This document shows positions 2,981 through 64,000 of a stretch of DNA of 64,000 nt, piece after piece. Under the pieces are notes generated by a model. It made no database searches and was not told where the DNA came from. It saw nothing but the letters and a program-made list of their open reading frames with translations. Source of the stretch: an uncultured virus (IMG/VR IMGVR_UViG_3300020048_000107) (taxonomy: Duplodnaviria > Heunggongvirae > Uroviricota > Caudoviricetes); IMG/VR virus record IMGVR_UViG_3300020048_000107; one strand, 5' to 3'. The position numbers and the translations under genes were made by a program. Each line of letters starts with the position of its first letter. Position 1 is the stretch's first letter.

Positions 2981-3574
2981 ATGAAGAACATTCTAATTCA
3001 ACCATCCTTCACGGATAGAGAGACTCATTCTTTAAATTTATATCTAAACGACTTAAGTAAATTCCCTGTTTTAACTAAAACACAAGAAGTTGAGTTGTTT
3101 AAAGCTTATAAATCAGGGGATAAAAGATAGGAAGAAAAACTAATTACCCATAATCTTAGATTTGTTGTTTCAATAGCAAAATATTATCAGAATATGGGCT
3201 TGTTACTAGAAGATCTTATTGCTGAAGGAAACATTGGCTTAATTAGATAGCTTTCTAAGTATGATCCTTCTATGGAATTGAGATTCATCACATATTAGGT
3301 TTGGTGGATAAAGCAATAGATGATGTATGCATTGTCACTTTACTCACGTCAAATTAGATTACCTCAGAATCGTATCTTAGAATTGGATAGAATCTACAAA
3401 TACATAAACAATTACGAACAAGAACATATGTACATCCCATCCATTGAGGAAATAGCGGAGTATATGCAGATCGATAAACGACAAGTTCTTAATTTTATGG
3501 ATTTAGATCAACCAACAATCTATTTGTTCGATACTATAACAGATGATTTTCAAGTAATAGACATATTATCTTAA
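2981..3574 (+). CDS. Sigma70-family RNA polymerase sigma factor (regions 1.2, 2 and 3 only)
   Basis: SLNLYLNDL (region 1.2), [48 protein letters not shown]. Four in-frame TAGs at 3128, 3248, 3296 and 3317. Confidence 0.92.
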
Positions 3575-3578
3575 AAAA

Positions 3579-3610
3579 TAAAAGCCTTAACGTTTGTTAG
3601 GGCTTTTTTG
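3579..3610. terminator. Intrinsic terminator between convergent genes, probably bidirectional
   Basis: aaaagccttaac-gttt-gttagggctttttt: a hairpin flanked by A and T tracts. Confidence 0.75.
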
Positions 3611-3659
3611 TTTATATCCTATAAGGATTAAGGGCCGCTTCGCGGCATTTTATACAAAT

Positions 3660-3687
3660 AAAAAAGTCCTGATAAACTATCAGGACT
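3660..3687 (-). terminator. Intrinsic terminator of the minus-strand cluster
   Basis: Perfect stem agtcctgata-aac-tatcaggact preceded by an A-run (U-tail on the minus strand), just past the stop at 3695. Confidence 0.75.
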
Positions 3688-3694
3688 CTCGTTG

Positions 3695-3931
3695 TTAATT
3701 AATTGGTTGTTGTTCAACGTGCTGCAATTCTTTACTATGGAACACGGCCACTTGTAATTCTTGATTCTTGTTAAACCACCAACATTTTATTCCTTTTAAA
3801 TGATTCATTTCTGAATCTTTAAAGTATCTGACCTCTCTCCCCTTCACAACCATTATTGGTTTGTTTGGAATATCTAACTTAATAGTAACCAAATCTCCCG
3901 GGAGGAAATAAGTTTTTTCTTCGTTACTCAT
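3695..3931 (-). CDS. DUF2158/YodC-like small protein
   Basis: Pattern F.PGDLV..K...P.MVV....CWWF......F...EL. Confidence 0.65.
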   Translation of the reverse strand: MSNEEKTYFLPGDLVTIKLDIPNKPIMVVKGREVRYFKDSEMNHLKGIKCWWFNKNQELQVAVFHSKELQHVEQQPIN

Positions 3932-4283
3932 TAGTTACATCAATGATATATAAAATGGCTACATCAGGTATTAAAAGTAAACTTGGCATACCCATTGCTA
4001 CTGGTAAGCTAGAGAATGAATCTATTACAACTCTATCACCAACTTTAATATCTAAAGTAACGTCTGCTGCAACCGCTTGAACTACAGCATACTTAATTCT
4101 TTGTTCACCACCTTCTACTATACCATTTTCTTCTTTATCGTAGAGGTTAGTTATGATCTTTGAGTCCGGAATTATGATTCCACTATCTGTTTTTTGTTTT
4201 CTGTAAGGATTGGAGTCTTCGACTTCTACAATCACTTTCCTTGACATAGGTCTTAATGTAATTTTTTCAGACATACTTAACAT
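3924..4283 (-). CDS. GroES-like co-chaperonin
   Basis: LRPMSRKVIV...KTDSGIIIP...AVVQAV...IKVGDRVV matches the Cpn10 signature. Confidence 0.75.
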   Translation of the reverse strand: MLSMSEKITLRPMSRKVIVEVEDSNPYRKQKTDSGIIIPDSKIITNLYDKEENGIVEGGEQRIKYAVVQAVAADVTLDIKVGDRVVIDSFSSLPVAMGMPSLLLIPDVAILYIIDVTNE

Positions 4284-4292
4284 TTATTAATT

Positions 4293-4568
4293 TTACCATT
4301 TACCCTAAGGGCATTTTGCATCTAACACTCGAGTTTTAGCTGACAATCGACAACCACAACCCTTTTTATAACCATCTTTTGCTACATAAGATACTTGATT
4401 TGTTTTGGGATCTAAATATTTCTTAGAATCACACATCATACCGAACATCGTATCTGAAAGTATTGGACAATTTTTACAAATCTATAGTCTTTTCTTAGAA
4501 ATTACTTCTTCACGATTTAATATTTCGTTATAATGTCCTTTGGCTATATCTGTTATTTGATTACCCAT
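4293..4568 (-). CDS. Small Cys-rich (putative metal-binding) protein, 91 aa
   Basis: Missing from the ORF track. Reads MGNQITDIAKGHYNE...RL*ICKNCP...GCGCRLSAKTR...CP*GKW with two TAGs, and fills the gap between its neighbours. Confidence 0.8.
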
Positions 4569-5454
4569 TCTTTAATTTTTTAATATTTAATTTCTTTTTG
4601 TAAGCTTTTAACATTTTTACTATATCTTCTTTTCTATAATCCACATCTATTTCAGTTTCTTTATGATTTCTATCAATATGTATCAGACATAAACGTTTAA
4701 TTTTGAAATCTGGATTTATTTGTTGTAACATCCAGGCATATAAAGATAATTGTACAGTATAATGTTGTAATTTACAATCGTCTAAATGACTTAAAGGATA
4801 AAACATCTTTTTTGATTTCTTTGTAAACTTATCATAGTAAGATTTAGATTCTATACCATTCTCATTTGTTTTGAAATCATATATGTAGATATCATTACCA
4901 TTCTTAATAAGAAGGTCCATCTGACCAGCTATATTCACCATACCATCACTGTAATAAACTAAATATTCCGGTAATACAGCTTTCTCTCTATTCAAATCAA
5001 AGTTATTTCTCTCACAATCAAACACATCGTCGTGTAATAAGAAACCACAATCTTTAGGATTTATCTTTCCGCCCTTATAAAACTTCTCTTCTTTTTGTTT
5101 ATGGATTTCTGTGCCATATTCACTACTAGTTTTACGCTTTAATTCGTAACCATCTAGTATTTCTTGTTTTACAAGTCTATACTCTGTTGGATCCACATAA
5201 GTTTTTACATCAAAGTCTATCTTTTTCTTAGTCAGGAGATATCCTCTTAAATCTCTAAATTCATTACCCATCAACGATTCTAAAGCTTTATAACCACTCC
5301 AGAAATCATCATCAAATTCTTCATGGAAATCCTTAATAAGCGTTGTCACAGAGATATACTTTATACTAGCATCTCGAGTGTTTACATACAAATGGTCTTT
5401 TTCGTAAAAAGTTACTTCGCCATTTACCTTTACATCATTATTTTCTTTCTTCAT
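4561..5454 (-). CDS. PD-(D/E)xK family nuclease (Cas4/RecB-like)
   Basis: H.Y...SVTT, G..IH, E......IAGQMDLL...IYDFKT, Y..QLSLYAWML. Start placed at ATG 5454. Confidence 0.85.
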   Translation of the reverse strand: MKKENNDVKVNGEVTFYEKDHLYVNTRDASIKYISVTTLIKDFHEEFDDDFWSGYKALESLMGNEFRDLRGYLLTKKKIDFDVKTYVDPTEYRLVKQEILDGYELKRKTSSEYGTEIHKQKEEKFYKGGKINPKDCGFLLHDDVFDCERNNFDLNREKAVLPEYLVYYSDGMVNIAGQMDLLIKNGNDIYIYDFKTNENGIESKSYYDKFTKKSKKMFYPLSHLDDCKLQHYTVQLSLYAWMLQQINPDFKIKRLCLIHIDRNHKETEIDVDYRKEDIVKMLKAYKKKLNIKKLKNG

Positions 5455-5480
5455 ACTCACTAATATATTATTTTTATTTA

Positions 5481-5498
5481 TTATATTTGCAAATATAA
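5481..5498. promoter_or_regulatory. Overlapping divergent Bacteroidota-type promoters (TAnnTTTG on both strands)
   Basis: Perfect palindrome ttatatttgcaaatataa between the divergent starts at 5454(-) and 5519(+). Confidence 0.75.
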
Positions 5499-5518
5499 CA
5501 AGAAACAACTTAACGATT

Positions 5519-5971
5519 ATGAGTGCTTTAATTACCTACAAGAAAGGTGGAATCCATATTAAGCCAGAGAATAAAGGCAAATTTACCTAGACTAAGAAAG
5601 CTACAGGTAAATCCACTGAAGAATTAACACATAGTAAGAACCCAGTAACAAAAAAGAGAGCTATCTTTGCACAAAATGCAAAGAAGTGGAAACATGAAGA
5701 CGGTGGAGTTTTACAGATGTATCAGAAGGGTGGAGGTCTATCTCGTGCGGAGGATTACAAGTCAAAGAAGAAACCCTACCCTACAGTCGAAAATAAGGAC
5801 TTTGCAGGCACGAACAGGAGTTATCCGATACCAAGTAAGGCTGACTAGGTAGATGCTCTTAAACTGGCTAGTTTGCACGGTAGAGGGGATGTTAAATCTA
5901 AGGTGTTTAAAAAGTACCCGGAATTAAAGAAAAAAGAAAAAGGCGGACTAATAACTTATAAACAAAAATAA
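5519..5971 (+). CDS. Conserved crAss-like basic protein (IHIKPENKGKF motif), probably virion-associated
   Basis: GGIHIKPENKGKFT*TKKATGKSTEELTHSKNP..KKRAIFAQNAKKWKH and SYPIPSKAD*VDALKLA; TAGs at 5588 and 5846. Confidence 0.85.
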
Positions 5972-5973
5972 TA

Positions 5974-6396
5974 ATGGCAACTAAAAAAACACCAATAAAA
6001 AAGAAAACCAAAGCTAAAGCTCAATAGACCCCTAGTCAAAATGCTGCTCAAGACGCTGAACAACAAGAATTTGTTATGTGGTTGTAGCAAAGATATGGTT
6101 TACAAGACGAACAATAGTTACAATAGAAAGCAGAAGAATTGGGTGAGGAAGGTATTAAACAAGAGTACATGGCTTTTCAACAAGAGAAAGCATAGCAACA
6201 AGCACAAGCTTTTAGACGTGGTGGTATGCTAGAGCGTTTAGTTAAATTAAGATCGCTTAAGAGTGGTGGTAAAAAAGAAATGCCGGTTAAGAAATTAAAA
6301 ATGAAAGGTATATCTACAGGTACTGCAGAAATCGAAACTATACCAACTAAAAATATTAACATAGATCCTAAACCAATAATTAAGAAAAAGAAATAA
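5974..6396 (+). CDS. Hypothetical crAss-like protein (K/Q/A-rich)
   Basis: Continuous frame through 5 TAGs; its TAA overlaps the next ATG. Confidence 0.75.
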
Positions 6397-6962
6397 TGGA
6401 TTTTTTAAGATTTCAAAACAATCAAGTTATATTAGAACGAGACGAAATATTACTTGTAAAAGAATTTAAGTAGCTATTAGACCCAAAAAGAAATCAATGT
6501 AAAGATGATAAAACTGGAGAACTTGGTTTGAGAGTCATTAAGGAATTGACTTATATTTATTTGTACTTAGATTGGAAGTCTCCTTATTCGGAATATACTG
6601 AACAAGAGAAGAAGGAAGCTGCTAAATTTGATAGTGAATTAACAGACTAGGAATTATTAGACTCTACATTCTTAGAAGCTTGTAGAAAATATCAAGATCT
6701 TCAAGATACTAGAAAGTTAAAATTACTTCGTTCTAGTTATAAAGCTATGGACGAATTAAGAATTTACTTTGAAACTGTCGATTTAACTGAAACAGACAAC
6801 TTTACAGGCAAGCCAATTTATAGTGCTAAGGATGTAATCTCTAATATTTAGAGTTTAGGTAAGGTAGTTGAGGGTTTAGAACAGTTAGAAGAAATAGTTC
6901 GTAAAGAGAAACAACAATCGAAAGGTGTACGCGGAGATTAGGAACCTGGCCTATTTGATTGA
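6396..6962 (+). CDS. Conserved protein upstream of the terminase (terminase small subunit candidate)
   Basis: EILLVKEF...YIYLYLDWKSPY...VRGD*EPGLFD, ending in TGA. Function is inferred from position only. Confidence 0.65.
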
Positions 6963-6980
6963 TCTGATTATCAACAAGTT

Positions 6981-7646
6981 ATGAAAATAGCAGGAGTATA
7001 TTATATCAAATGTTTAATAACAGATAAGTATTATATAGGCTCGTCCATTAATATAAATCGTAGATTCAGTGCTCACAAAAGAAAATTAATACTTCAAAAA
7101 CATCCTAATAATATTCTTCAAAATTAGTGGAATAAATATGGAGAATAGAATTTTGAATTCAAAATTATTGAAGAGCTTAAAGATGTAGACGATGTAAGTA
7201 AAAAAGTCCGTTTGTTAGAACAGAAATATTTTGAAGATAATAACTATAATATAGATTTAAACTGTGTGAAAAAAGTTATTATGACTAATGACGATCTTGA
7301 TTTATATCGTTGGGAGTGTAGAACCAAAAAAACTGTTTCGATAGAAACTAGATAGCAAATATCTAAAACATTAAAAGAAAGGGGTATTACAGAAGAAGAA
7401 CAGCAATACAAACAAAAAAGATGGAAAGAAGAGAAATAGTTACACCCCGAAAAATTTGTGATATCGCAATTAAATCGAGCAATAACAAAAGAACGTAGTC
7501 AAAAATCTTATAAGTTTGTATATGATGGAGAAATAATACACATAACTAACTTAAAACAATTCTGTTAGGATAACAATTTACATTATAAAACGATGCATAA
7601 AGTAACAAAAGGTATTAGGAAGCAATATAAAGGATACAGTATATAA
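6981..7646 (+). CDS. GIY-YIG endonuclease (free-standing, homing type)
   Basis: GVYYI...YYIGSS.N..RR..H...LQN*WNKYGE*NFEF and a NUMOD3-like SIETR*QIS. Five TAGs, so absent from the ORF track. Confidence 0.9.
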
Positions 7647-7660
7647 ATTAATAATATTAT

Positions 7661-7688
7661 AAGCCAGAATTTTATTCTGGCTTTTTTG
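7661..7688 (+). terminator. Intrinsic terminator
   Basis: aagccagaat-ttt-attctggctt followed by a T-run. Confidence 0.75.
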
Positions 7689-7698
7689 TTATATTTGT
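7689..7698 (+). promoter_or_regulatory. TTATATTTGT promoter upstream of the terminase
   Basis: Same motif as at 5481, 17607, 21022, 23854 and 37042; lies just before ATG 7712. Confidence 0.65.
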
Positions 7699-7711
7699 AA
7701 AAATATGATTT

Positions 7712-9820
7712 ATGATTAAATGGGATGTAAAGATAGGTGACGAGATCAAATACTTTGATCCAGAATTATCTTATGAATTAACACAATACCGTCCAATAAC
7801 AGAAACTAAAGGTTTAGATTTCGATCCGACACCTTTTACTGAAGTTGGTCAATTTAAATTACTTACTGGTAGATACACAACTTTTCCACATGGTGGAAAA
7901 TAGCATAGAGATTTTTGGCAAGAACAACATACAAGATGTATAGAAGGTTATACTGCTAATGGTTTTAGAATTACGGGGGATCATTATTTCTTCCTTAATT
8001 TTTATCAATTACAATAGGTACAAGATGTTGTAGTTACCGGTAGTGGTCGTACAACTGCATTCCCTAGTTTTATATAGTAGCAATATGAATATTATCACTA
8101 TATAGAATTGTAGGAAAGTAGTAAGCTAGACGTGTTAACTTTAAAATCTCGTGGTGTTGGTTGGTCAGAAATTTCAGCTTCTATGGGAGCATCAAAATAT
8201 ACAACTACACCAAAATACATTAGTATCTATACCGCTTTCTATGAAGATTATCTTTTAGGTACAGGGGGTGTAGTTACAAAATGTTGGGACAACTTAGAAT
8301 ATTTAAACACAGAAACAGAAGGAGGTATGCGTCGCTTACGTCAATCTGTAAATACTACAAATAGAAAACGTTAGTCTGTCTTAGATAAAGACAAAACAGA
8401 ACGTGGCCACATGTAGGAAATATCTCTCATCATTACTGATAAACCTCGTAAGTTAAGAGGTACTCGTGTTGACCGTTTATACTTTGAGGAAATTGGTTCT
8501 AACGAACACTCTATTAAATTATGGATTCAATCTTTAGCTTTAGTTTCTGTACAAGGTAATAAATTCGGTACAAGATTAGGATGGGGAACTGGTGGAGACT
8601 CTGGACCTCAATTAGTTGGTCTTGAAAAAATGTTTTTCCACCCAACAGATTACAACATATTACCTTACAAACACAATTGTACAAAGAATGGTGAGTATGT
8701 TTTTTCTTAGTATTTTGTACCTTAGTACTAGTGTTAGGCCGGATTTTTAGATAACAGAGGTGTTACAAAAATGAAAGAAGCAAAAGAACATTTTGTTAAA
8801 GAAAGAAATAAATTAATAAATAACCTCGAAGATTATTTAATCAACTGTTAGGAATATTGTTTTACACCAGAAGAATAGTTATCTCGTCAAGGTGTTAATA
8901 GTTTTAACCAATTAAAATTAGCAGAACAAAGATTAAATATAGAATTACATAAGAAAACAGAAGACGGAGGTCCATTACCAGAAGTTGAAAGAGGCTTCTT
9001 AGATTGGACTCACGATTCGAATGATGATATTAATGGTGTTAAATGGACTAAAGATCCGCGAGGAAACATTTTAGTTTTAGAAAAACCATTAAAGGATGCT
9101 GATGGTGTTGTAGTAAAGAATCTTTATGTAGCTGGAGTTGACTCTATTGACCAAGGTGTCATGGATTCTGTAGTAGGTTAGGATGGTTCTAAATTTTGCA
9201 TTACTGTTAAGAAAAGAACTTTCGGTAATGGCGGGGATAAATATGTTTGTGTATATTTAGATCGTCCTCCGGTAGCTAAAGAAGCTTATGCTATAGCTTA
9301 GAAAATATTGTGGTGGTATGGTTGTAAAGCAAACTTAGAGGATACTAAGATTACATTTAGATAGTATCTTCGTGAACGTAAATGGGATAATAAAATGCTT
9401 ATGAAACGACCATAGTTTGGTTTACAAGATCCTATGACACAACGATTTAAAAAGAACAATAGTGAATTGTGGGGAACTCCTGGATCACCTAAAATGATAG
9501 GTCACGGATTGGAATTAATTACAGACTATATTGAAGATCATTGTCATAAAATATTCTTCATAGAAATGATAGATCAATTACAAAGATATTCTTATGAAAA
9601 TAAAGGAGCCTTTGATATAGTTGCTGCTATGATTATGACTGAAATAGGTGATGAAGATATGTTTAATGTAAAAATAAAAGACATGCAAACAGAAAAACGA
9701 CAACATAAAGATATTGGTTATTATTACGATGATTCTGGAGTGAAGCATTGGGGTGTAATACCTGGTAAATCAAATTCAAATATTAAAGTATGCGTTCCAC
9801 AGATTTGGAGAGTAAATTAA
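7712..9820 (+). CDS. terL: Terminase large subunit (702 aa)
   Basis: Fragments at 7712, 8132 and 9434 are in one frame. ITGDHYFFLN, Walker A LKSRGVGWS, Walker B LYFEEIG, GTGG coupling motif, nuclease YVAGVDSID and FDIVAAM. Confidence 0.93.
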
Positions 9821-10089
9821 AATGTTACATCATTGAAAAATATGAGGTTGAATACAACAAAGATTTACCTATTGAGGTAGAAGGTACTAATTATATTTGT
9901 ACTTTTTATTTAGGTAACGATTGGAGACGACCTCTTATTATACAAGGTGACTTTGACAACGATGATGACTTCTATACATTCATATGTAAAGAATTTGATT
10001 CAAGGAGATTATACACAGTGTGGTTCTCTAAATTGGAGAAACAACTAGACAGTATTTATGGTGAAACTACAGATGAACAAACAAAATAA
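9790..10089 (+). CDS. Hypothetical protein between terminase and portal
   Basis: Intact 99-aa ORF overlapping the end of terL. Confidence 0.75.
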   Translation: MRSTDLESKLKCYIIEKYEVEYNKDLPIEVEGTNYICTFYLGNDWRRPLIIQGDFDNDDDFYTFICKEFDSRRLYTVWFSKLEKQLDSIYGETTDEQTK

Positions 10090-10092
10090 CAA

Positions 10093-12354
10093 ATGGATAA
10101 TTTAACGGGTTTATCCCATGTAAAAGATCTTCTCTCTGAAAAAGAGAAAGAAAATAAGGATTATTTGATCAGTGTAACCGATCTTACAATAACAGAACTG
10201 GTAAAAGATAAGGATCAAGTTAGAAAAGCATACAATTACTATAATGGTATTCGAGATAAAGATCAATTCAGACATCTTGAAGAAATTTATGGTATTGGTG
10301 CGCCCACGTCTATTGAGTTTATACCACTCGTTAGACCACATATTGATTAGTTGGTTGGTGAGTTACTTCAAATTCCTTTCAAACCACAAGTCACATGTAA
10401 GGATAAGAAGACCCTGACAGAAATCAACAGAGAAAAGCAAACTAAAATTATTTAGGATTTATATGCTGAAACTCAAAAACATGTAAACAATGTTTTTACT
10501 GATTAGATGTTAAAACAAGAAGGTCAAAATACAGGTCAAGTAATAGATCCTTTTATAGAAAAGCGATTACAACAAATAAAGGATGATTTAACTAATAATT
10601 TTGTATCTGAATATGAAATTGGTGTACAGTATTTATTAGAATATTTCAAACAAAATAAAGCTTTAGATTTTTTAAATAAAAGAAAAGAATTATTTAAATC
10701 ATTATTAATTGCCGGCCAATGCTATTATAATCAAACTACAGATAAAAAAGGACAATTACCAACGTTTGAAGTAATTCATCCGATGGATGCTTTTATGGAA
10801 AACAATCCTAATAGTCCATATTTAAACAAATCTAGTAGAGGTGTTATACGTAGAAGAATGACAAGACAAGATGTCTTATTAAGATATGGACATTTGTTAA
10901 AAGCAGAGGATTTAGAAAAAATAGAAAGTTATGTAGCTGGTAGAGAAGATGGTAACATATATTACATGACTAGTAATGATGAGGGTATTATAGCCGGTAT
11001 TTCTCCAACAATTGTTGGTGGATCACCATAGTATCCTGACAACTGGTACAATTGGTTTTATAGAGACTTATTAATAGTATATGAAGTACAATTTTTATCT
11101 GCTAATAAATATACAGATAAAGATGGTAAAACTAGATATAGATTAGATCGTTATGAAACTATTCGTATAGGTGAAGATATTTATATTCTTAAAGGTAAAG
11201 CTGAAGACGTATATCGTGAATCAGAATATCCAGATGAATAGACACTTACTATGGGTGGTATATGTTATTCTGATATTAATGGTTAGCCTTATTCTTTAAT
11301 GTTAGCTACAGCCAACTTACAAGACAAATATGATTTATTATATTTCCATCGTGATGTTGCTATTTAGTTATCTGGTGTAAAAGGTATGGCTGTTGATACA
11401 TCTGCAATTCCAGCTTGGTTAGGTGAAGAACCTGAAGAAAGACTGAAGAAGTTTTGGGCATATGTAAAATCAGGATTGGCTCCTTTAGATACTGCTCAAG
11501 AAGGATAGTCTACTATGAACACTGCTATCTTTCAACCATTTGATAATAGTATCCCGGGCCAAACTCTACAAGCTATAGAATTAGCAATTCAACAAACAGA
11601 AGATGCATGTTCTAGAATTACAGGTGTCTTTAGAGAACGCTTAGGTGCTATAGAACAAAAAGATGCTGTAACAAATGTACAAACAGGAATTCGTCAATCA
11701 GCAATTATTACGAAACAGTATTATCAAATAATAGATTTATTAACTAAAGAAATCTTAATAGGTCTGATTAATTCTTGTAGAACTACATTTAAAGGTGGAT
11801 TTTTAGGATCTATCATATTAGGTAATGGTCTTAGTAAAATATTTGAGATTAAACCAGAACATTTCTCTTTCACAGATTATGATATTCATATTGATGATTC
11901 AGGAGATATTGTTCGCGATATGCAAAAGATAGAACAGTTAAGTTTAGAGTTGATTAAGGCCGGTCAAACTGATGCTGATGTTATTATTTCTACAGTGGGT
12001 TCACATAGTATGAGTCAAATGAAACACGACTTATTACTTGCTTACGATAAAAAGAAGAAAGAGAATGATCAGTTAGAAAAAATGCAACAGCAAGTTTTAC
12101 AATAGGAACAACAGTAGAAAGAAATGCAATAGCAAATGCAAAAATTATCTATGGAAAATGAATAGTTGAAAAAGAAAGATAGAGAATTAGAAAGATACAA
12201 AGTAGATAAAACATTTGAATTAGGTGTAATTCAAAACGATACCACCGCAAAATATAACGATGGTAGTTTAAAATTAGATTTAAAACGTGTAGAATTAGAA
12301 CAATTACAGCTGATAGATAACAACAGTCAGAATAACGAAATTAAAAACGCATAA
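10093..12354 (+). CDS. Portal protein (753 aa)
   Basis: Four fragments in one frame. KAYNYYNG.RD..QF..LE...GIG.PTS.EF.PL, ITGVFRERLG.IEQ.DAVTNV, coiled-coil C-terminus, located after terL. Confidence 0.88.
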
Positions 12355-12356
12355 TT

Positions 12357-13313
12357 ATGAGTGACCTTTGCAACACATATAACATACAAGACCATCCTAC
12401 TGAGTTGACATTTGCTCTCGTCACTAGTACTACAGATTGTAGTTTTTATGTCGAAGACAACACAGAAGATTATAATCCACCATTCTCATTTGGTTTTTAT
12501 AATGAAGATGGTCCGGATCCAACAGAATAGCACCAATACAAAAGAAGTTGGGGTTATTTTATAAATGTGCTTTACTGGAACAAATACAATAAATACACTG
12601 GTAAATGTGAAGCACAAAAAATACAAGCAACTTTAGATAATTTAATTTACGAAGATGGTTAGTTAGATTTAGTACCTCAAAAATACGGATTTAACCGAGA
12701 TGGTTATTATACTGTATATAGAATGTTTGTACTAAACAAAACTAAATTTGAAGAACTTAAGTCTTTATATTTAGGTTCGCAAGTCATTGTTTATAATGAA
12801 TCTACATTAACTTTAGAATTTGGAGTATGGGATGATGAGTATAATGTCACTTATACTACAGTTACAGATATTAATGATGTCGTATTAAGCTTTGAAAATC
12901 AATCTAGTAATGTTAAAATAACCGGAACTTAGTCTAAAAAAGATATAGTTTCTATTTGTTATTTAACTAAATGTTATGAAGGTTTAAACATTCTCTTAGT
13001 AGAACAAATATCAAATCCTTGTTTAAATTCACCTTCTCAATTTACAGGTAACTCTGGTAAAAGTTTATTTGGTTATAATTCTGTTAACTGTTAGGCAATT
13101 TACAACAACCCAAATTTCTTCAAGAGAGATTTTTTATTTATGTTAATCACTTCTTTAAGATAGTTGGTAGACAGATGTGAATTTGTACACGCTGAAAAAA
13201 TGATTGAAGAAGTAATAGGTACATCGACTACTTAGAAATGTTCTTAGTTTACCTATTTATGTGGAGATACTCTTACATCAAACGAAATACAGACTGGCTG
13301 TGGATGCGGATAA
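12357..13313 (+). CDS. Putative virion structural protein ending in GCGCG
   Basis: Continuous frame through TAGs; contains the ORF at 12723. Confidence 0.7.
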
Positions 13314-13314
13314 A

Positions 13315-13500
13315 ATGGCATGCTTAATAATCTCTCAATTCGAGGCATTGTATAAAGCATTAAAAAAAGGTGATCAACCAGATCCATAGGATTATATATT
13401 ACTTAAAGATCTTATATATAGATTCTTAAACACAAATTGTGTAAATACTTCTTTTATAATTCAACAAAATGACGACATTAAATCCTGGTTATTACAATAA
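13315..13500 (+). CDS. Small hypothetical protein (may start at GTG 13300)
   Basis: 61-aa frame with one TAG, bridging two genes. Confidence 0.5.
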
Positions 13501-17596: not shown

Positions 17597-17606
17597 TAAT
17601 TTTTTA

Positions 17607-18775: not shown

Positions 18776-18780
18776 TAATT

Positions 18781-21011: not shown

Positions 21012-21021
21012 ATAATTTTTA

Positions 21022-51803: not shown

Positions 51804-51814
51804 AAAATAAAAAT

Positions 51815-54800: not shown

Positions 54801-57800
54801 ACTTAAGTAAACCTACTAATCGTGTTGAATCTATATTGTAGGATTTAAATTCTATTTTAGGTAAAGACGAGGTATTTGAAAGTTTGTATGCTGAATTGAC
54901 AGAAGCTATTTAGAATGACGATGTTGATTTCTTATATAGTGATGGTTTACAACAAAGAATAAATGATGTTTTATAGAAATCAAGTAAAATCTATCAACAA
55001 TATTACTGGGAAAATTATTTGTTTGGACAAAATTATGAAATGAGTGTTAATGGTCCAATCTATTTACACCCATAGAAAGATTTACCAACGCAAAAAACTC
55101 ATTATAGTGAGATTTTATCTAGGTTAGCTGTATCACAAAAACGAAATGTTGACTACTCTGCCACCGTTATACCATACAACTATGGTTTAAATGGTCCGGC
55201 CAGGGTTAGACAAGTCTATGTCTATAAAGATCTAAAACGAAAAGTATCTAACCCAATGGGGGAAGTAGCTTCTGTAGATACTCATGACGGTGGAGAACTT
55301 ATATTAATGTTACATAGAATATTAGAGAATAATAGTATGTAGGGTTATTAGAATCCTATATTTCACAAACCAATTATACATGGTAGAATGTTGAATTAGA
55401 ATGGAGATTTTGAAGATTCTATGTTGTTTAAATACGCTTCATATTAGTTAACTAGTTAGAAATTAAGGTCTAGCAGAAAGTTACGAAATATGGTTCAATA
55501 CGCTTTGTCTGAACCACTTTAGTTTAGCGATTTAAAAGAATCTGTGTGGGATTTCACAAGAGCCTACAATGGTAAAAGTAATTCTATAGAGTACGGTAAG
55601 TATCAAATTGCTGTAAAAACAGGACTTGGAAACAGGTATAAAGTGTTGTTAAATCTTGCTAAGATAGGTGATAACGATTATTCAGCTACTTGGGAAGACC
55701 AAGATGGTAAAATAACTACCGATAACAACATAGAACTGAATTCGCTTTACGATTTATACAAATTATTAGGTGCAGAACGCACTGTAAAAATAAACAAATA
55801 GAAAGAAATAATAGAGTATAATGAGAACGCTTGGATAGCTTTATAGGATGTATGTTGTAAAGTGGGATTTGAATTAACAGAAGACGTATTAAACAGTTCG
55901 ATAGGTTTAGAATATGCAAGATTATCAGGAGTATCTTTACAGAACTTAAAGAATAATCTGAATAATAACATTAAAAATCAACAAAATATAATACAACCTT
56001 TAAAGTTTTCTTATGTAAGTCAATTTACACCAGAAACATGTATTAAATATGGTTCTGTAATAGGTAATGCTAATAATGATTTTACTGTTAAGGTTAACCC
56101 GGAAGAAGACGATTAGACCTAGACCACGAGAACATTACAAGAATGGAAAGGTTCACACAGAATAATGCGTGTTTATGACATGCTTGGTGGTGTTCAGCAA
56201 GATGCCGAACACGAAGGTGATGAATAGACGGAACCAACACAAATGATAAATGGTGCTTCCCTCGACAATCAATCACCCGAATTCCTAGACTTATATAAAC
56301 ATATAGCTAATTATGTCATTCGTAAAATGACAAAAACATATAGTGGTAATACTTAGTTTGTTTCTTCTCCAGAAAAGATGGAATCTGACGACGATTACTT
56401 TATGACTCATATGCGTCAATTAGCTTTTATTTATGATAAGTTAGAAAAGCAAATATTAAATTCGTCTTATGATAATGGAAATACTGCCGCTGTAGTTTTA
56501 GCTTCTGCTTTAAACTTTTCAAAAGATTTTATAGCTTTAGATAGAAATACCAAAGACGATGATCCAAACAAAATATTACGTGCAAGAGGATTAGCTAGTA
56601 AATTTACAGTTTCTTTAAGTCACCCATCAGTTTACAATATGGTAATCACCGCTCTCGCGGCCGCCAACACTAAATTGGGTATTAGAAGAATGGGTGCTGG
56701 TTCTGCTGCTGTTCAATAGCCTCACCAAGGACATATGTCTTTCTTATAGGTACCTTAGTTGGAATCTATAAATAACAATGTGTCTTAGGATGATGGTGAT
56801 TTTATGCCTTCGAGTTTAGGTAAGGTATTTAATTATGACAATTACACAACAATGACAGCAGATCAATTCTTTGAATATATGGGTGAACATCCAGAATATT
56901 AGGAATTGACCAGAGAATCTAATCGTTATTCTTTAGTTTGGGATATCAACACTGGTGTATCTCGTTGGAACTTAAATCTTTATAATCATTATGTTCTTAC
57001 TACTGCTGATGGTTCAATTGAAGAACTCTACGTTAAAGACATCAATGTTTTAAAATCCTTAAAACAAAGAATTTATAACGGTGAATTCACTAACATAAAA
57101 CAAGACAAACTATCAGGATTTGATTGGTCACACGATCAAGGTAGAGATTTGAAACATATTGATTTTGAAATAACTGTTAATGTTCCCGGAGAATCAGACG
57201 CAACTATCGTTTATAATATTTATGATACTATAGCCAATGAATTCTTGCTTAAATTACAAAAGTTAGATTGGGAAAATCAAGCAGAAAGAAATCAATTAAT
57301 TAAAGAATTCAATACTGTCATTAAACAGAATTCGAACGAGTTAAAAATGTTCACCCAAATCAAATCTATTTTAAATAAAAAGGAGTTTGCAAACATACTT
57401 CGTTCTTTATTAAATGTAGAATACAAACTGATGTCGGAAGGACGAAAATTAATTACCGCTGATGATGAAGCTCTTATTTAGTTTTTGGGAAATGAGATTT
57501 CTGATTTTGGTATCATTCCTGTGGTTAAAGTAAAGAGTGTTGATTCTGAATTAATTATGATGTTGCCGTTTGCCGATAAGTTTAAAATATCTAATATGAA
57601 TCACTTATCAGATATCACGGTAGACTCCATTATGAACAGATTGAACAAACAATATTATGAGGTTGAGGATTTGTTGTTAAAGGATAAGAATGGTAAAAAG
57701 TACAAAATACCTTATTTCTTTCAAGCAGATAATGGTAACATTTATTTAGCTGATGAAAATGTAGGTAGTTCTGGATTAGAAAGTGTTGATCCTTATGTTT

Positions 57801-60800
57801 ATATAGAAGATAACAAGAAATATGTAACTGTAGGCAACAAACAAATCATTGAAATTACTAGTGATTTAGAAGGTAAATTAAGGATTTAGTATACTAAAAA
57901 CAACGAACCAGTATTAGTTCTTTTAACAAGTAATTAGGAGATGAATCCTGTTAAGAGTGATAAAGAAGGAGAATTGATCGACAATTTTAAAACGAACATT
58001 AATGTTACATTTTGGAATGGGTTACAAAAAAACATCAATGAAATTAATTTGTCTGAGAGTACATTTATACAAAACAATCTTGATTCAAGTAATGGTATAT
58101 CATCTTGGTTAGACGCAGAAAATATAACAGAATTCACATCAGAGGAAAAGAAAAAGCAATTAGCTAGAGAAATATATTCTGCTTATCAGATGGTATTACG
58201 TTTTGCATCAACACGTATTCCAGGACAAAGTTATCAATCATTTGCATCTACTAGAATTAGTAATTTCTTACACGGCGAATAGAATGCTGTATACGTAAAT
58301 GACTATACTATATGGTTAACTGGTGGTGACTACGATATTGATAAATTATATAATATAGGATTCAATTTAAGTAAAGGGGGTAAATTTATAGGATGGCATA
58401 GATTTTTTAATGCTTCTTCTTATGAACACTTAAAAGAATCATTAAAATTACCGGGTTAGGACAACACAATTAAAGAGAGTACAAACGACGATGCTGTTGA
58501 CTTAAACAGTCCATAGTATGAAGAAGATGGAATAACAGATCCAGATACAGGTGATGTGTTCGTTAAAACTGTTTCTGGTAAAGATCTCATTTAGATGATC
58601 TTAACTAAAAATGGTAAAATGCACAATCAAATATCTTTAAAGAAATTTAAAGCATTTGTTAAATTATACAATTCACTTGTACAAAAAGGTTATAAAAATG
58701 CAGAATTGACAGAGTTTATTAAAGAGACTTTAAACCATAAAAACGTAACCACATTTGTTGCGGCTGATGAAGGTAAAGCTTTGCAGAATAGAATGATAAC
58801 ACAAATAAGAAGCAACTTATCTGATATTCGAAATGTAGTTCCTACCTATTCTCCAATTAGTGTTGGTGATAGATCTTCTGGTCCAAAGGGTTTAAAGATG
58901 AATTCTGAAAAGTATATTGGTTCACAATTGGGTCACCCAGACGTTCCATTAAAGAGGATAGCTGACGTAAGTAATCAATCCTCAGGAAAGAGTGTCGTAG
59001 GTATCATGGCCGCAGGGTTAAAACTCTACGCTACAATATCTTATGTTGTTGAAGATATGCTTTATAAAAACTAGAGTGTAGAAGAATTAGAATAGATGTT
59101 ATTCAGTCACACTGCAACAATCACTGAAAATGGACAAGTGGTAATTATAAACGTTAGTAATGGTTTTGCTGGTATTAATTATGAAATAAATAAAGATTTG
59201 TATGAACTTTAGTTATCTCAAAAAGGTTTAACACCAGACCAAATTAACGAATTAATTATCGATCATTACAAAAGGGATAGTGTGTAGTTGAATATTAGTT
59301 AGTTATTATCGGCCGCCACTGACAACGGAAAAGAAATGATCTTAGGTATCATCAATTCCGGGAAAGAAACTTAGGGTATATACACATATGCTTTAATGAC
59401 CGGAATGTCTCTAGAAGATGTGGGTGCTTTAATGACAAGTAGAGAAATAGATTTTATAATTAAGAATACCAAACGAAGTATTTTGTTAAACGATCCGTTT
59501 AAGACAATGATAGATGTTGGTAATTATTTTTTAAACCCAATAGACTTAGACACTTTTGTACCATTTGGTAGTAAGTAGACTATTTTAGCTTAGTTAGATT
59601 TGGAAAAGAAGGAAGAGAATTTAGGTTTAGTAAGTATAAAGGATATTGAAAAAGCCATGGAATCAAAATAGTTAATCTTGAAATAGTTGGCTATAAGTAA
59701 CTTAAGCGAAGAAGAACAAGAATACTTTGATGAAGAATGGTCATCTAATTACAGCACAATCATAAATGCTTACACTTTATTACAGAATTATATTAACGCT
59801 AGGAAAGAAGTAGAAGAATTGTTATTAGAAGAAAATAGTAAAAATAGAGTATCTTTATTTTTAACTTTTTTAAATAATGCTTAGTTGTTTGCTTCAACCA
59901 CACAAGTGTTGGGGGCCAATCAAAGAGTAAAACCAAACGATAGAGAATTAATAAAGTTCTATGTTAGTATAGAAGATAGTATTAGAAATTATTTGTTTAG
60001 AGTTGGTTAGAAAACAAAAGGTGGTACTGATACTTATATACTTAACAACAATAATGATTGGTCAGAAGGTACACTGAATCCAGAATTACAAGAATTTTTG
60101 TAGACATTTAATTTATGGAAATTTATGAATTCAACACCTGAGGAAGCACAAAAGGCAATTTAGTTGTTTGATAAAGTAAAAAGTGATCTAAATCCATTAT
60201 AGATTTTTTATCATGCTGAACACTTTAGAGAAATGATCAAAACTGTTTTAATGACGGATGCTATATTGAAAAAACAATCTCTTGTTTATAGGTCGGTTGC
60301 AAAATTTCAAGAGCAAACGTTGTTGAACCACATGAAGAAAAAAGAAAAGACAGCAGTATTATTTAAGAATTAGACTACTGTAGATGTACAAAAGAAAGTA
60401 GTTTTAGAAAGGAACCTTGGTCCAGAAGCATTCACTGTATTAAAAAACATAATGGATGATAAATTTATTGTAGAAAGTCTACACTTATTACAAGGTAGAT
60501 TAAATGCCGAAAAGAAAACAATCTACATAATGTCAGAAGAAGGAGTTCCCAAATAGGTAAACCTGTAGTTACTAAGTGAGGAAAATAATATATTAGGTAG
60601 AAAGGAATTTATTAAATTTATGGAAGAAACATTTATACCAAGATTAAAGTTGGGAAAAATAAATGATGGTCCCAAAGAAACAGTGAATCCAAACATACGT
60701 AATAATGCTTTCATCACGAGTTTACAGATTAAAGATTTTGTTGTACGTAATAAAAGGGGAGAAAGATTCTTAGCTTATGGTGTGGCAAACTTCAAATCTA

Positions 60801-61294
60801 GTGATAACTTGTAGGTTAAATTAAATCAGAACGAGCTTATGATAGCTCTGTATGATTTGGATAATCTAGATGATTCCGAATATAGACCAACACCAAATAG
60901 TAATGGTACTTCTGTTATCGATATGTTATTCTTATATAATATAATATTACATAGAGGTAAGGATGGAGAATATACATTAAGTAGTTTCTTCGATCCAACT
61001 AAATTACCAAGTTCTATAGTTAGTAAATTTTATATGTAGGAAAATTAGGTTAATAATACTATCACCGACGTTTTAAAAGTATCTGAATAGGATTTAATAG
61101 CTAATGGTTTTGATAATGAATTATTACCGAAATTAGAATTGATGTAGAGTAGTAGATTTTCACCGGATTATCGTTATATTAATATGGGAGAAACTACTAC
61201 AGAAGAACAAAAAAGAAAAAGTTTGGATCAAAAATTAAAAACATTATTTGAATCCGGATTTATGGGTCTAAATATAAAATTCGATTGTATATGA
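51815..61294 (+). CDS. Giant virion-packaged two-barrel RNA polymerase catalytic subunit (3159 aa)
   Basis: Sixteen fragments in frame. TRIPGQS and catalytic GGDYDIDK (58328-58342), plus QKRN, HDGG, GK.VVGI.A.GLK, SAATDN.KE. Confidence 0.85.
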
Positions 61295-64000
61295 TATGTA
61301 CAGCTTATATGAGTTCAAATGGGTGGGGTAATCAAATTACCCCACTTTTTCAGATTGAAGTAACAATTGATGGTGACGAGTCTTTAGTTAATGAAATTAA
61401 AGACATGTTGACATCAGATATTCCTTATACTGATTAGATGGATCAACTCGAAAAAACATTCAATCCTAATACGGATGTGAATGGAAATATCGTGTTGACT
61501 AAGGATGGCGCTACGGTGACATTAACCATCAACAAAACTAATTTGTTAGATGGATTAACTGTACAAAATCTATTAGATAAAATAAATATGCCAAATTTAA
61601 ACTTAGATAAAGACACCAATGTTGCTATCTTATTAAAAGAAGACTATCACACACTATATCCAAATTTATATAGTAATGCTGTTTATGATGCTGAAAACAA
61701 AGCTATAGTGGTTGGTGTAACAAGTATTTTTGATATAGATGCTTTAAAAAAATATATAAAAGACCCGGGTGCAAAAGGTGATGAAATGTTAGATAATTAT
61801 TTAAAAGTTATCAAACATGAATTAGCGCACCACAATATAGAGACTAAAGAAGAGTTCTAGAATTACAGAAACATTTAGGCTAATGCAGAGAATTATACAA
61901 GTCAATAGTTACATATTGCAGCATAGATTTAGAATACACCTTACGCGGACTTAAAATTACACTTACAAGGAACTACTAACTATCCAAAATTCTATACTGA
62001 ATTGTTTGCTTGGTAGGAAGCTGATAAAGATTTCAAATCTTTATTGGAAAATAACAAACATTATCAAGATGTTTTGTCCCAATTACCTGAGCAAAAAGAA
62101 ACTCCAACTCGTCCTGAAACAACTGAATTCTTTAATGAGACTGAATTGAATAAGGCTAATATGGGTGTTATCCCTGAAAAGATTGGTAATTTAGGGGTAG
62201 GTGATTTAAAAGCTTATAAAGAATATCTAGATATTGCTTATGGGGAATACATTCCTGTAGACGACAGAAGTAATAATTATACTGCACAAATTCATAGTTT
62301 TCAACCAGGAGAATTAGTTTATATACAATGGACAATTAAAGGTGATGAAAAAAGACCATCTGCAAACTTCATTAAAAAGACTGAACGTTCTGGAAATGAC
62401 ATTGTATTAACAGTTTCTGGTAGACAATATGATGCAAAATAGGTTTATGATAAAACTGGTAAAACAGACAATAGACCTTGGAAAGACAAGATAGTTATTA
62501 TAAAAGCTGATGGTACAATCGAAAGTGAAAAACTTAGAGATAAAGAATCAGATTATAAAGCTAGAATTGTAGCATTTAGAAAGTTTGCTGGTAAGCCGGT
62601 TGGATTTACCAACGATGGTATCGATAGAAACATAACTAGTAAAGAAAAAAACTTGATCAATTCCAATACAAACAATTGGTTCTTCGCTAATGAAAATGCA
62701 AAGAAGGTCGGTAAGTATATGGAAAAAGAACAAGTTACTAAAGTTAAAGCAGAAGAATAGTTGTTAGCTAAAGGAGAACTAAAGAAAATAGACGGAAAGT
62801 ATCCTAAATTCTTAAGTTCCATATTTGGTTAGAGACACGACGAAAAAGACGATATTGGTTTCTATTTTAAAATTGACGATTCCAGTAGCAAAACAGAAGT
62901 CGGAAATAATGTTATTAGTGTTGGGGATAGATTGGTTACTAAAGCTCAAAATAACGAAGCATTAAATGATGCCTCATACAACTTAATAAAGGTTGGTGAC
63001 ATTGTTACATACAAAGAGTGGTCCGACAATAAAAGTAAATTCTATGATGTAGTTGTATTAAAAACATTTAAAGAAGGTTTATTAGTACAAGACATCACTA
63101 ATGGAGAACCATCAGGAGAACCGCACACCATAAGAAGAAAAGATTTGTTTGCTGTATATAGTTTCTTCAATAAAGATTCTGATAGAGAGTCCGGTGTTGT
63201 TACTATTTTAAAAGATTTCAAAGAAATTTCGGATGAGTTATATGCTAACAGACCTACAGCAAAAGAAAGTGCTAAAAAAACAATATTCACATTAAAAGAA
63301 TTATCTGATCCAAAAATCTATAGTTATGACTCTTATAGTTTTAGAAGTTATACTAAAGATAAAGACGATCAATACGCATTAAGTAGAGAAGGTTCTTTTT
63401 TCCATCCTAGTGATGAAACTGTAACTTACATTTATGGAGATCAGAATTTTCCAAGTGAGGAATATCAAAAGTTTGAAAAAGAACTTTCTAAAGTATCTTC
63501 AAAAGTATATAGTGTTTTAAAAGAGAAAGTTAAAAACAACACAAAGGTTAATGTTTACAGTAGAGATTTAGAAGATTTAAATTCAGACGGGAGTTATAGA
63601 AAAGATAGTTTTGGTAATGAGTTAAAAATTGGTCCAATCATAGCAGATTTACTATCTGGTAGAGGTGATCTAAAAAAATTACAACATTATTTGGAAATGT
63701 AGACAGTTAAAAAACATAGACGTGATAAATTGTCTTTGTTAAAATCTGGATCTTATGTTTTATTAAATAAAAGGAAAAAAGAAAAAGGAACATTTGCTAA
63801 GCTAAAAGAAAGACAACCTGTATATGGTGTTGTTCTTGCAAGGTCTAAAGACTTCTTAACTGTTGCTATACCAAACTTACAATGGAATGAAACGTTAGAA
63901 AAATACAACGACTTCGAAGATTTCAAAATCATACAAGTTAATGTAATGGATTTTCGTGAGGATAAAGAGTATGATGTGTCTAAAGTTTTTAACAATATGA
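61291..64000 (+). CDS. Large protein with a zincin-like HExxH motif (runs past the window end)
   Basis: ATG overlaps the previous TGA; KHELAH at about 61813-61830; no in-frame TAA or TGA seen up to the window end. Confidence 0.75.

What the first reader, a model, noticed from the sequence alone, without database searches (positions are those of the whole stretch)
2981..64000. Amber (TAG) appears to encode ALANINE, not glutamine: a candidate new phage genetic code
Seen: in-frame TAGs interrupt most genes, and real ends are TAA or TGA. From family consensus motifs as I recall them, TAG falls on conserved Ala positions in unrelated proteins. Sigma70: GLIR*L and FITY*VWWI (consensus GLIKA, F.TYA.WWI; 3248, 3296). 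GIY-YIG: LQN*WNKYG (LQ.AWNKYG; 7125). NUMOD3: ETR*QIS (ETRAKIS). Walker A: GV*GTGKT (G.AGTGKT; 48267). crAss-type motifs: GKFT*TKK (5588), KAD*VDAL (5846), terminase KR*S, *YFVP*Y and C*EYCFT.EE*L (8372-8878), portal HID*L, tail Y*D*DGNETD (30462, 30468), FN*P (24344), RNAP IS*LLSAATDN. Known crAss-like recodings are TAG=Gln (code 15) and TGA=Trp (code 4); I know of no described phage TAG=Ala code. The assignment is inferred from hand alignment.
Basis: partly seen in the sequence, partly recalled or inferred. Interest (0 to 1): 0.98.

Follow-up and report, generated by a model that had tools for sequence, protein, structure and literature searches.

The report
Phage reads TAG stop as alanine
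This freshwater crAss-like phage writes about a quarter of its alanines with the stop codon TAG, a genetic code not described for phages, and public databases currently translate these phages wrongly with glutamine at those sites.

Summary
The window is a crAss-like (zeta-like) phage. Its 30 long + strand ORFs carry 353 in-frame TAGs and end in TAA or TGA.

Five tests point to alanine and not glutamine:
- Six whole standard-code relatives, 200 TAG sites: Ala +25.9, Ser -120.2, Gln -151.2 log-odds.
- Profiles of terminase and muzzle outgroup homologues, 41 sites: Ala +26.0, Ser -16.7.
- Three sigma-70 columns are Ala in 138/146, 142/147 and 144/147 homologues.
- Composition: GCN 4.55% + TAG 1.74% matches the Ala content of relatives, and Gln is already normal at 3.51%.
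- TAG alternates with GCN among close relatives.

The same tally gives Gln in 23 other TAG-recoded relatives and Ala only in this monophyletic clade, whose sister lineage uses the standard code.

The decoding tRNA was not found, so the mechanism is inferred: an alanine-identity tRNA(CUA) charged by host AlaRS. An unrelated T5-like phage with a G3:U70 tRNA(CUA) also reads TAG as Ala.

Four literature searches found no phage TAG=Ala code. This scan noted TAG=Ala earlier on other DNA (e1-6146486, e1-6146487).

The parts
1090..63999 (+). TAG-recoded gene block: 29 of the 30 long + strand ORFs (352 of the 353 in-frame TAGs). Real stops are TAA or TGA.
100..1044 (+). Tyrosine integrase-like gene with one TAG, 15 codons before its TAA.
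   Evidence: Pfam Phage_integrase and Phage_int_SAM_5
2981..3574 (+). Sigma-70-like factor (regions 1.2, 2, 3; 197 aa) with 4 TAGs. Three fall on nearly invariant Ala columns.
   Evidence: Pfam. PDB alignments show GLIRA and TYA in RpoS. In 146-147 homologues: X50 A138, X90 A142, X106 A144, X113 S100/A23.
4564..5454 (-). Conserved exonuclease-like gene without TAG, on the opposite strand.
   Evidence: 44% identical to the G006 homologue; alignment A3
6981..7646 (+). GIY-YIG homing endonuclease with 5 TAGs. A lake-water relative lacks it.
   Evidence: Pfam GIY-YIG; I-TevI alignment; joint 6949-7647 in run X4
7712..9820 (+). Terminase large subunit, 17 TAGs.
   Evidence: Among 120 homologues, TAG columns read A 109, A 110, A 94, A 70/S 40 and A 63/S 53.
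10093..12354 (+). Portal protein, 12 TAGs.
   Evidence: 40-49% identical to relatives' portal; X86 is A in 5 of 6 genomes
18781..20199 (+). crAss-type major capsid protein, only 1 TAG against 21 GCN.
   Evidence: Pfam Crass_capsid
20286..21011 (+). Second GIY-YIG/NUMOD3 endonuclease, no TAG.
29820..34613 (+). crAss muzzle protein, 26 TAGs.
   Evidence: Pfam crAss_MUZ; homologues; profile test
43701..51803 (+). Giant protein (2700 aa), 50 TAGs, including the Walker A site at 48267.
51815..61294 (+). Giant protein (3159 aa), 64 TAGs. The TAG at 59300 is A in 6 of 6 standard-code genomes.

Best explanation
In this phage and its close relatives (a monophyletic, apparently freshwater clade of zeta-like crAss-like phages), UAG is a sense codon for alanine. 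It supplies about 28% of all alanine codons in the window (353 TAG against 915 GCN). The reassignment itself is shown by comparative evidence.

The mechanism is inferred. The phage most likely encodes, outside this window, a tRNA with anticodon CUA and alanine identity (G3:U70, A73). Host alanyl-tRNA synthetase does not read the anticodon (established knowledge, recalled), so it would charge this tRNA with Ala, and the tRNA would compete with release factor 1 at UAG.

The code arose from a standard-code ancestor, independently of the TAG=Gln crAss-like lineages. TAG is rare in the most highly expressed virion genes, as expected if UAG is decoded less efficiently than GCN.
For: TAG is sense.

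The residue is Ala:
- Six whole standard-code genomes put A first at TAG sites in each genome (23-44 of 138-177 sites). Over 200 sites with at least 2 references the log-odds are Ala +25.9, Ser -120.2, Gln -151.2. Resampling recovered the true residue in 100 of 100 trials for each of the 17 amino acids tested.
- Outgroup profiles of terminase and muzzle, 41 sites: Ala +26.0, Ser -16.7. Calibration recovered the true residue in at least 198 of 200 resamples.
- A single reference, 166 sites: A 38, S 15, N 13, Q 10. Log-likelihoods: Ala -466, Ser -484, Gln -514.
- Sigma-70: A at 138/146, 142/147 and 144/147 homologues; the fourth site is S 100, A 23. PDB RpoS alignments agree.
- Budget: GCN 4.55% + TAG 1.74% = 6.29%, against GCN 5.5-6.9% in standard-code relatives. 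CAR (Gln codons CAA and CAG) is 3.51% against 3.3-3.5%. TAG=Gln relatives instead show lowered CAR (2.7-3.0%) plus TAG 0.7-1.1%.
- Within the clade, window TAG faces TAG 52, GCN 30 and other codons 40, out of 122. In database translations of relatives, which write Q at TAG, the non-Q residues are A 50, S 17, E 11, V 10 of 126.

Control: the same tally gives Gln in 10 of 12 and 13 of 18 TAG-recoded loci. It gives Ala only in L005, L006, L133 and L134.

Phylogeny: the Ala clade is one branch (support 100) and its sister group holds standard-code phages.

Mechanism by analogy: a T5-like IMG/VR phage (G016) has a G3:U70/A73 tRNA(CUA) 7 nt before its tRNA-Ala(UGC). It aligns TAG with Ala: 390 sites, A 89, next K 41; log-likelihoods Ala -1073, Ser -1160, Gln -1190. 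The phage T5 GenBank record notes that its tRNA-Ala with a swapped anticodon is an effective amber suppressor.
Against: - No tRNA of any kind was found in the window or in the four other clade contigs held. The decoder is therefore unseen and its identity elements untested.
- TAG sites match Ala somewhat less often than GCN sites do: 23% against 32% self-conservation with one reference, and 8/15 against 57/88 at invariant columns.
- In the reverse direction (relative's TAG against window codon) GCN is only 9 of 53 non-TAG codons.
- Two recalled motif claims failed.
- There is no peptide evidence. Mixed or context-dependent decoding cannot be excluded.
- The Q letters in database relatives are taken to be TAG. 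This was checked at DNA level only for four loci.
Confidence: 0.88

Rival explanations
1. TAG encodes glutamine (NCBI code 15), as assumed for crAss-like phages and as used in the database translations of this clade.
For: Published crAss-like recodings are TAG=Gln (Yutin 2021, passages seen; Borges preprint, passages seen; Peters 2022, abstract seen in the listing). Database proteins P0002 and P0137 carry Q at every window TAG. Many related lineages do use Gln.
Against: Gln scores -151 log-odds against +26 for Ala over 200 sites. Q is 1 of 146-147 at each sigma site, and that one is the clade's own code-15 translation. Q faces 1 of 15 TAG sites at invariant columns. Gln would rise to 5.25% against 3.3-3.5% in relatives, while Ala would stay low at 4.55%.
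Confidence: 0.02
2. TAG is read as serine, or ambiguously as several small residues (Ala, Ser, Gly, Thr), for instance by a poorly discriminated suppressor.
For: Ser is always the runner-up. Some TAG columns are S-rich (sigma X113 S 100/147; terminase 235 and 380). TAG sites are a little less Ala-like than GCN sites.
Against: The gaps to Ser are 43 and 146 log units. Columns that are nearly invariant Ala carry TAG. Ala and Ser exchange readily, so S-rich columns are expected for a true Ala codon: true A sites face S 10% of the time in the T5 control.
Confidence: 0.06
3. TAG is Ala, but the decoder is not a phage tRNA with G3:U70. It could be a host-encoded suppressor, a tRNA with other identity elements, or an atypical or split tRNA that detectors miss.
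For: No tRNA was found in 64 kb or in four other clade contigs. Yutin 2021 and the zeta-phage paper (PMC12386605) both note recoded crAss-like genomes without a detectable suppressor (passages seen).
Against: Only about a third of a genome of roughly 172 kb was seen. In relatives the tRNAs lie upstream of the terminase, outside the region this window covers. G3:U70 tRNA(CUA) genes exist in four other TAG-recoded phages, one of them shown here to align TAG with Ala.
Confidence: 0.2
4. The TAGs are not translated: the genes are pseudogenes, or the TAGs are assembly or sequencing errors.
For: None found.
Against: The TAGs are shared by independent assemblies and runs. 353 TAGs lie in one frame of long conserved genes, and no other stop codon interrupts those frames. 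Relatives differ at many places around conserved TAGs.
Confidence: 0.01

Closest known systems
Code-15 (TAG=Gln) crAss-like and other gut phages (Yutin et al. 2021, PMC7886860; Borges et al. preprint 10.1101/2021.08.26.457843; Peters et al. 2022, PMC9523058)
   Same: A lytic-type tailed phage carries in-frame TAG in most virion and transcription genes, and real stops are TAA or TGA. Some genes stay TAG-free. It belongs to the same broad phage group (crAss-like, zeta-like), and related lineages do use TAG=Gln.
   Different: The residue is Ala, not Gln. The clade arose separately, from a standard-code sister. The Gln-type suppressors of relatives G001 and G003 have C3:G70. Borges et al. state that they see only TAG=Gln and TGA=Trp in phages whose code differs from the host's (passage seen).
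Laboratory Ala-inserting amber suppressors: tRNA-Ala with a CUA anticodon, and G3:U70 transplanted into other tRNAs (recalled: Hou and Schimmel 1988; McClain and Foss 1988; Kleina et al. 1990)
   Same: They give the proposed mechanism. AlaRS recognises the acceptor stem and not the anticodon, so a CUA anticodon yields Ala at UAG. The T5 GenBank record carries a note to that effect for its tRNA-Ala.
   Different: Those are engineered suppressors in E. coli. Here a natural genome depends on the reading at 353 sites. The tRNA of this clade has not been seen.
UAG=Ala in some green-algal mitochondria
   Same: The same codon takes the same new meaning.
   Different: That is an organelle with its own translation system. 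This is a virus using a standard-code host's ribosomes.
T5-like IMG/VR phage G016 (record behind L467), found here
   Same: It is TAG-recoded with TAG aligned to Ala.
   Different: It is an unrelated phage family, and its decoder is visible: a G3:U70/A73 tRNA(CUA) beside tRNA-Ala(UGC). No paper on it was looked for.

Membership tests
Stop-codon-recoded phage (TAG as sense) | In-frame TAG within conserved, otherwise intact genes, and ORF lengths restored when TAG is read through. | tested here: met
Stop-codon-recoded phage (TAG as sense) | Genes terminate with the remaining stop codons. | tested here: met
   24 TAA and 5 TGA among 29 complete ORFs
Stop-codon-recoded phage (TAG as sense) | Phage-encoded suppressor tRNA(CUA). 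| tested here: inconclusive
   None in the window or in L005, L006, L133, L134. The rest of the genome was not obtainable.
NCBI code 15 (TAG=Gln) | TAG columns dominated by Gln in homologues. | tested here: not met
   CAR is already 3.51%, as in standard-code relatives. The TAG=Gln relatives show the expected CAR deficit.
TAG=Ala code (proposed) | TAG columns dominated by Ala with an Ala-like substitution profile, using a method that recovers known residues and known Gln recoders. | tested here: met
TAG=Ala code (proposed) | tRNA(CUA) with alanine identity (G3:U70, A73). | not testable with these tools
   The genome part that should hold it is not in any collection reached. It is seen only in unrelated phages.
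TAG=Ala code (proposed) | Ala found in peptides at TAG sites. | not testable with these tools
   No proteomic data available.
crAss-like phages (Crassvirales sensu lato, zeta-like) | crAss-type major capsid, muzzle and ring proteins. | tested here: met
   Pfam Crass_capsid 1.1e-19 and crAss_MUZ 4.3e-21. CrAss_Ring_1 scored 5e-6 (26.5 bits, just under the cut-off of 27).
crAss-like phages (Crassvirales sensu lato, zeta-like) | Terminase and gene order shared with large (150-190 kb) crAss-like genomes. | tested here: met
   Terminase tree. The window is collinear with G006 from about 128 kb to 62 kb. The name 'zeta' is my inference from genome sizes and the papers; it was not tested against named zeta genomes.

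The most novel reading that the evidence does not exclude
UAG=Ala is a recurrent, independently evolved phage genetic code. It is present at least in this freshwater crAss-like clade and in a T5-like phage, and probably in other phages that carry G3:U70 tRNA(CUA) genes. It is easy to evolve because AlaRS ignores the anticodon. Pipelines that allow only TAG=Gln systematically mistranslate such phages. Avoidance of the GpC step that starts every standard Ala codon may favour it: GpC odds are lower in all three codon phases here.
Probability: 0.6. Interest if true: 0.92.

Novelty: new variant of a known kind. Interest (0 to 1): 0.88.

Why it matters
Stop-codon recoding in phages is held to come in two forms when the phage's code differs from its host's: TAG=Gln and TGA=Trp (Borges preprint, passage seen).

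A third meaning, TAG=Ala, has several consequences:
- It widens the set of natural genetic codes. As far as I recall, no NCBI translation table gives TAG as Ala (not checked here).
- It shows that the amino acid cannot be assumed from the codon.
- It offers a simple route to code change, because any tRNA-Ala that gains a CUA anticodon stays an Ala tRNA.

In practice, current database translations of this clade put Gln at every TAG. That is about 1.8% of residues, some in invariant motifs, and it harms annotation, structure prediction and proteomic searches.

The finding also gives an experimentally tractable case: a natural Ala amber-suppressor system in phages of standard-code hosts.

Tried and rejected
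Extending the window:
- An exact 45-mer from the window's end found nothing in viral contigs or metagenome contigs.
- No whole genome is held for this window.

Looking for close relatives with more DNA:
- Single-protein scans found none.
- Alignment scans with the terminase found only four short clade contigs: L005, L006, L133, L134.

Anchored scans meant to reach the tRNA region:
- A PurA-like gene that sits inside the tRNA arrays of relatives gave no clade member.
- The exonuclease next to the terminase gave only the same two IMG/VR contigs, both of which start inside that gene.

A pattern scan for tRNA(CUA) with U70 C71 C72 A73 gave 90 loci and 11 tRNA(CUA) calls by ARAGORN. None belongs to this clade. 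L439 comes from the same metagenome as L006 and looked promising, but it has A3:U70 and lies in an unrelated, unrecoded phage.

The sister lineage G006 has 20 tRNAs by ARAGORN (23 Rfam matches) and no suppressor.

Weak tRNA calls in the window at lowered ARAGORN thresholds lie inside genes and were dismissed. Rfam at E up to 5 gave only chance-level matches.

A PDB search with the Walker A region found nothing. The RNR of G016 gave 0 of 8 TAG sites on Ala, but the genome-wide tally for G016 is clearly Ala.

GpC avoidance as a driver is only mildly supported. Odds are 0.84, 0.47 and 0.75 by codon phase, against 1.01, 0.64 and 0.95 in the sister G006. I keep it as an idea, not a finding.

Habitat. 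The two runs that hold most of the window are labelled aquatic metagenome and may be its source. The lake-water runs hold relatives. I draw no firm host or habitat conclusion.
Full report
**What is there.** The window is 31% G+C. Under table 11 it has only 22 ORFs of 150 aa or more. With TAG read through it becomes a tight array of 30 long + strand ORFs of up to 3159 aa. ORFs of 300 aa or more sum to 1,794 aa under the standard code and 16,977 aa with TAG as sense. TGA as sense adds nothing and TAA as sense adds little. The 30 ORFs hold 353 in-frame TAGs (1.76% of codons). The 29 complete ones end in TAA (24) or TGA (5).

Pfam identifies a crAss-type capsid and a muzzle protein, with a ring-protein match just under Pfam's cut-off, plus a sigma-70-like factor, two GIY-YIG endonucleases, an HNH protein, DUF192 and an integrase. 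The terminase is at most 47.5% identical to anything in the phage record collection. No near-identical DNA is there.

**Which amino acid.** I translated TAG as X and asked which residue homologues carry at those columns.
- Against one standard-code relative (MT835470.1, 117 kb), 166 TAG sites face A 38, S 15, N 13, Q 10, K 10. A likelihood built from the substitution patterns of the same alignments ranks Ala -466, Ser -484, Thr -499, Gln -514. The gap widens in well-aligned contexts.
- Against six whole standard-code genomes, A is the commonest partner in every one (23-44 of 138-177 sites). Over 200 sites with at least two references the log-odds are Ala +25.9, Ser -120.2, Val -145.9, Gln -151.2. 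Resampling the same number of sites of known residues recovered the true residue in 100 of 100 trials for each of the 17 amino acids tested.
- Profiles built only from outgroup homologues of terminase and muzzle (41 sites) give Ala +26.0, Ser -16.7, with at least 198 of 200 correct in calibration.
- In the terminase, TAG sits on columns that are A in 109, 110 and 94 of 120 homologues.
- In the sigma factor, three TAGs sit on columns that are A in 138/146, 142/147 and 144/147 homologous representatives. The fourth column is S 100, A 23. The single Q at each site is the clade's own database translation. PDB RpoS alignments show the same two invariant alanines.

**Composition.** Standard-code relatives have 5.5-6.9% GCN and 3.3-3.5% CAR (the Gln codons CAA and CAG). 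The window has 4.55% GCN, 1.74% TAG and 3.51% CAR. So TAG fills an alanine deficit, not a glutamine one. The TAG=Gln relatives G001 and G003 show the opposite: CAR 2.7-3.0% plus TAG 0.7-1.1%.

**Control and phylogeny.** The same tally applied to other TAG-recoded crAss-like loci gives Gln in 10 of 12 and 13 of 18. Three had too few sites to call. Some loci are the same contig held in two collections. Ala came out only for L005, L006, L133 and L134, the loci closest to the window.

On a terminase tree these loci, the window and the database proteins P0002-P0008 and P0011 form one branch (support 100). Its sister group includes the standard-code phages L027 and L071/G006. The Gln recoders sit elsewhere (FastTree, midpoint root). 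The Ala code therefore looks like a separate origin from a standard-code ancestor.

Within the clade, window TAGs face TAG 52, GCN 30 and other codons 40, out of 122. In the reverse direction GCN is 9 of 53 non-TAG codons, which is still the commonest residue but a weaker signal.

**Is the sequence real.** Database proteins from independent NCBI, ENA and Logan assemblies share the TAG positions, written there as Q. Two aquatic-metagenome runs hold 0.91-0.93 of the sampled words with almost no differences, and they may be the source samples. Two lake-water runs from other studies hold relatives roughly 90-95% identical. None of their listed differences in the sigma gene hits its four TAGs (only the best-supported differences were shown).

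**How it most likely works.** This part is inferred. AlaRS recognises G3:U70 in the acceptor stem and not the anticodon (recalled textbook knowledge). A tRNA-Ala that acquires a CUA anticodon therefore inserts Ala at UAG.

I could not find the tRNA. The window has none, and neither do the four other clade contigs. The window is collinear with the sister genome G006 from the terminase towards the giant-protein genes. G006's tRNA block lies upstream of the terminase, beyond the window's left end. The Gln-type suppressors of G001 and G003 also lie 8-12 kb upstream of their terminases. All routes to that part of a clade genome failed; they are listed under Tried and rejected.

**Support by analogy.** A pattern scan of IMG/VR for tRNA(CUA) with U70 C71 C72 A73 gave five loci whose tRNA(CUA) has a G3:U70 pair: L440, L446, L467, L515 and L524. 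I fetched the four records behind L440, L467, L515 and L524 (G015-G018), and all four are TAG-recoded. L446 carries the same tRNA sequence as L440 but lies on another contig that I did not fetch.

One of them, the T5-like G016, has this tRNA 7 nt before its tRNA-Ala(UGC). Against phage T5 its 390 TAG sites face A 89, K 41, S 37, E 33, Q 21. Log-likelihoods are Ala -1073, Ser -1160, Gln -1190. Its pb4 aligned to the solved T5 pb4 shows A at 7 of 25 TAG sites and Q at none. Its RNR shows A at 0 of 8. The T5 GenBank record itself notes that T5 tRNA-Ala with a swapped anticodon is an effective amber suppressor.

**Use of TAG within the window.** TAG makes up about 0.3 of Ala codons in most genes. 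The share is only 0.05-0.06 in the capsid gene and in two neighbouring genes (21083-21925 and 22701-23795). It is 0.6 in the small HNH and GIY-YIG genes. It is 0 in ORF 1938-2900, in the second GIY-YIG gene and in the minus-strand exonuclease. This fits weaker decoding of UAG than of GCN, or timing control as proposed for other recoded phages. It was not tested.

**Compared with what is known.**
- Yutin et al. 2021 (passages) translate recoded crAss-like phages with TAG 'most likely glutamine'.
- Borges et al. (passages) state that only TAG=Gln and TGA=Trp are seen in phages whose code differs from the host's.
- Peters et al. 2022 confirmed code 15 by metaproteomics in two crAss-like phages (abstract seen in the listing).
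- The 2025 zeta-phage paper lists amber suppression without naming the residue (passages).
- Four full-text searches found no paper reporting TAG=Ala in a phage. Subscription papers and supplements were not seen.

Earlier notes of this scan report TAG=Ala in a hot-spring phage with an Ala-type suppressor and propose GpC avoidance as a driver (e1-6146486, e1-6146487). Here GpC odds are moderately lower than in relatives in all three codon phases. That is compatible with the idea but far from proof.

**Verdict.** The reassignment of TAG to alanine in this clade is well supported by several comparative tests of different kinds and a positive control. The decoder and peptide-level proof are missing. 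It is a new variant (a new amino-acid assignment) of a known kind (stop-codon recoding in phages).

Noticed in passing
IMG/VR record G016 (loci L536-L541); tRNAs at record positions 60691-60765 and 60772-60846: A complete T5-like phage (115.7 kb) is TAG-recoded. It carries a G3:U70/A73 tRNA(CUA) 7 nt before its tRNA-Ala(UGC). Against phage T5, its 390 TAG sites align best with Ala.
   Followed up: yes
IMG/VR records G015 (L532-535), G017 (L542-548), G018 (L549-550): Three more TAG-recoded phage contigs carry G3:U70 tRNA(CUA) genes. The residue was not tested. G017 has only 2.54% GCN codons and GpC odds of 0.66, and part of it also opens up with TGA as sense.
   Followed up: partly
window, whole; L005: GpC is under-represented in all three codon phases (window 0.84, 0.47, 0.75; L005 0.80, 0.62, 0.52), compared with 1.01, 0.64, 0.95 in the standard-code sister G006.
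   Followed up: partly
window 18781-20199, 21083-21925, 22701-23795: The capsid gene and two neighbouring genes nearly avoid TAG (share of Ala codons 0.05-0.06, against about 0.3 elsewhere). The small HNH and GIY-YIG genes use it most (0.6).
   Followed up: partly
window 2981-3574 and 3573: The sigma-like ORF is 197 aa, while its homologues are about 285 aa, and no region 4 was seen. Lake-water relatives have a 2-base gap at 3573, right at the ORF's end. The gene may be truncated, frameshifted or split.
   Followed up: no
window 6949-7647: A contig of run X4 joins 6949 to 7647 with 8 other letters between. A relative therefore lacks the GIY-YIG gene 6981-7646, as expected of a mobile homing endonuclease.
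   Followed up: no
window 1-50; contig starts of L005/L358 and L006/L360: A contig of run X2 departs from the window before base 50. Both IMG/VR clade contigs begin inside the exonuclease gene. The region left of the terminase module (integrase, sigma, small minus-strand genes including a 119-aa ORF at 3924-4283 whose sequence looks GroES-like by eye, untested) looks variable or hard to assemble.
   Followed up: no
L004 (MT835539.1) 6356-6440, minus strand: A TAG=Gln relative carries an 85-nt 'tRNA-Stop (tta)' call and no CUA tRNA in its first 50 kb. Yutin 2021 describe a suppressor that arose by a change from anticodon TTG (Gln) to TTA.
   Followed up: no
G010 record position 22072-22144; G006: The standard-code relative G010 carries a tRNA(CUA) with C3:G70 although its genes are not recoded, as the 2025 zeta-phage paper reports for other genomes. 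The sister genome G006 has a tmRNA-like call at L214:10778-11134.
   Followed up: no
database proteins P0002, P0137, P0257: Public translations of this clade carry Q at every window TAG, that is, they were made with code 15. If TAG=Ala, about 1.8% of their residues are wrong.
   Followed up: yes
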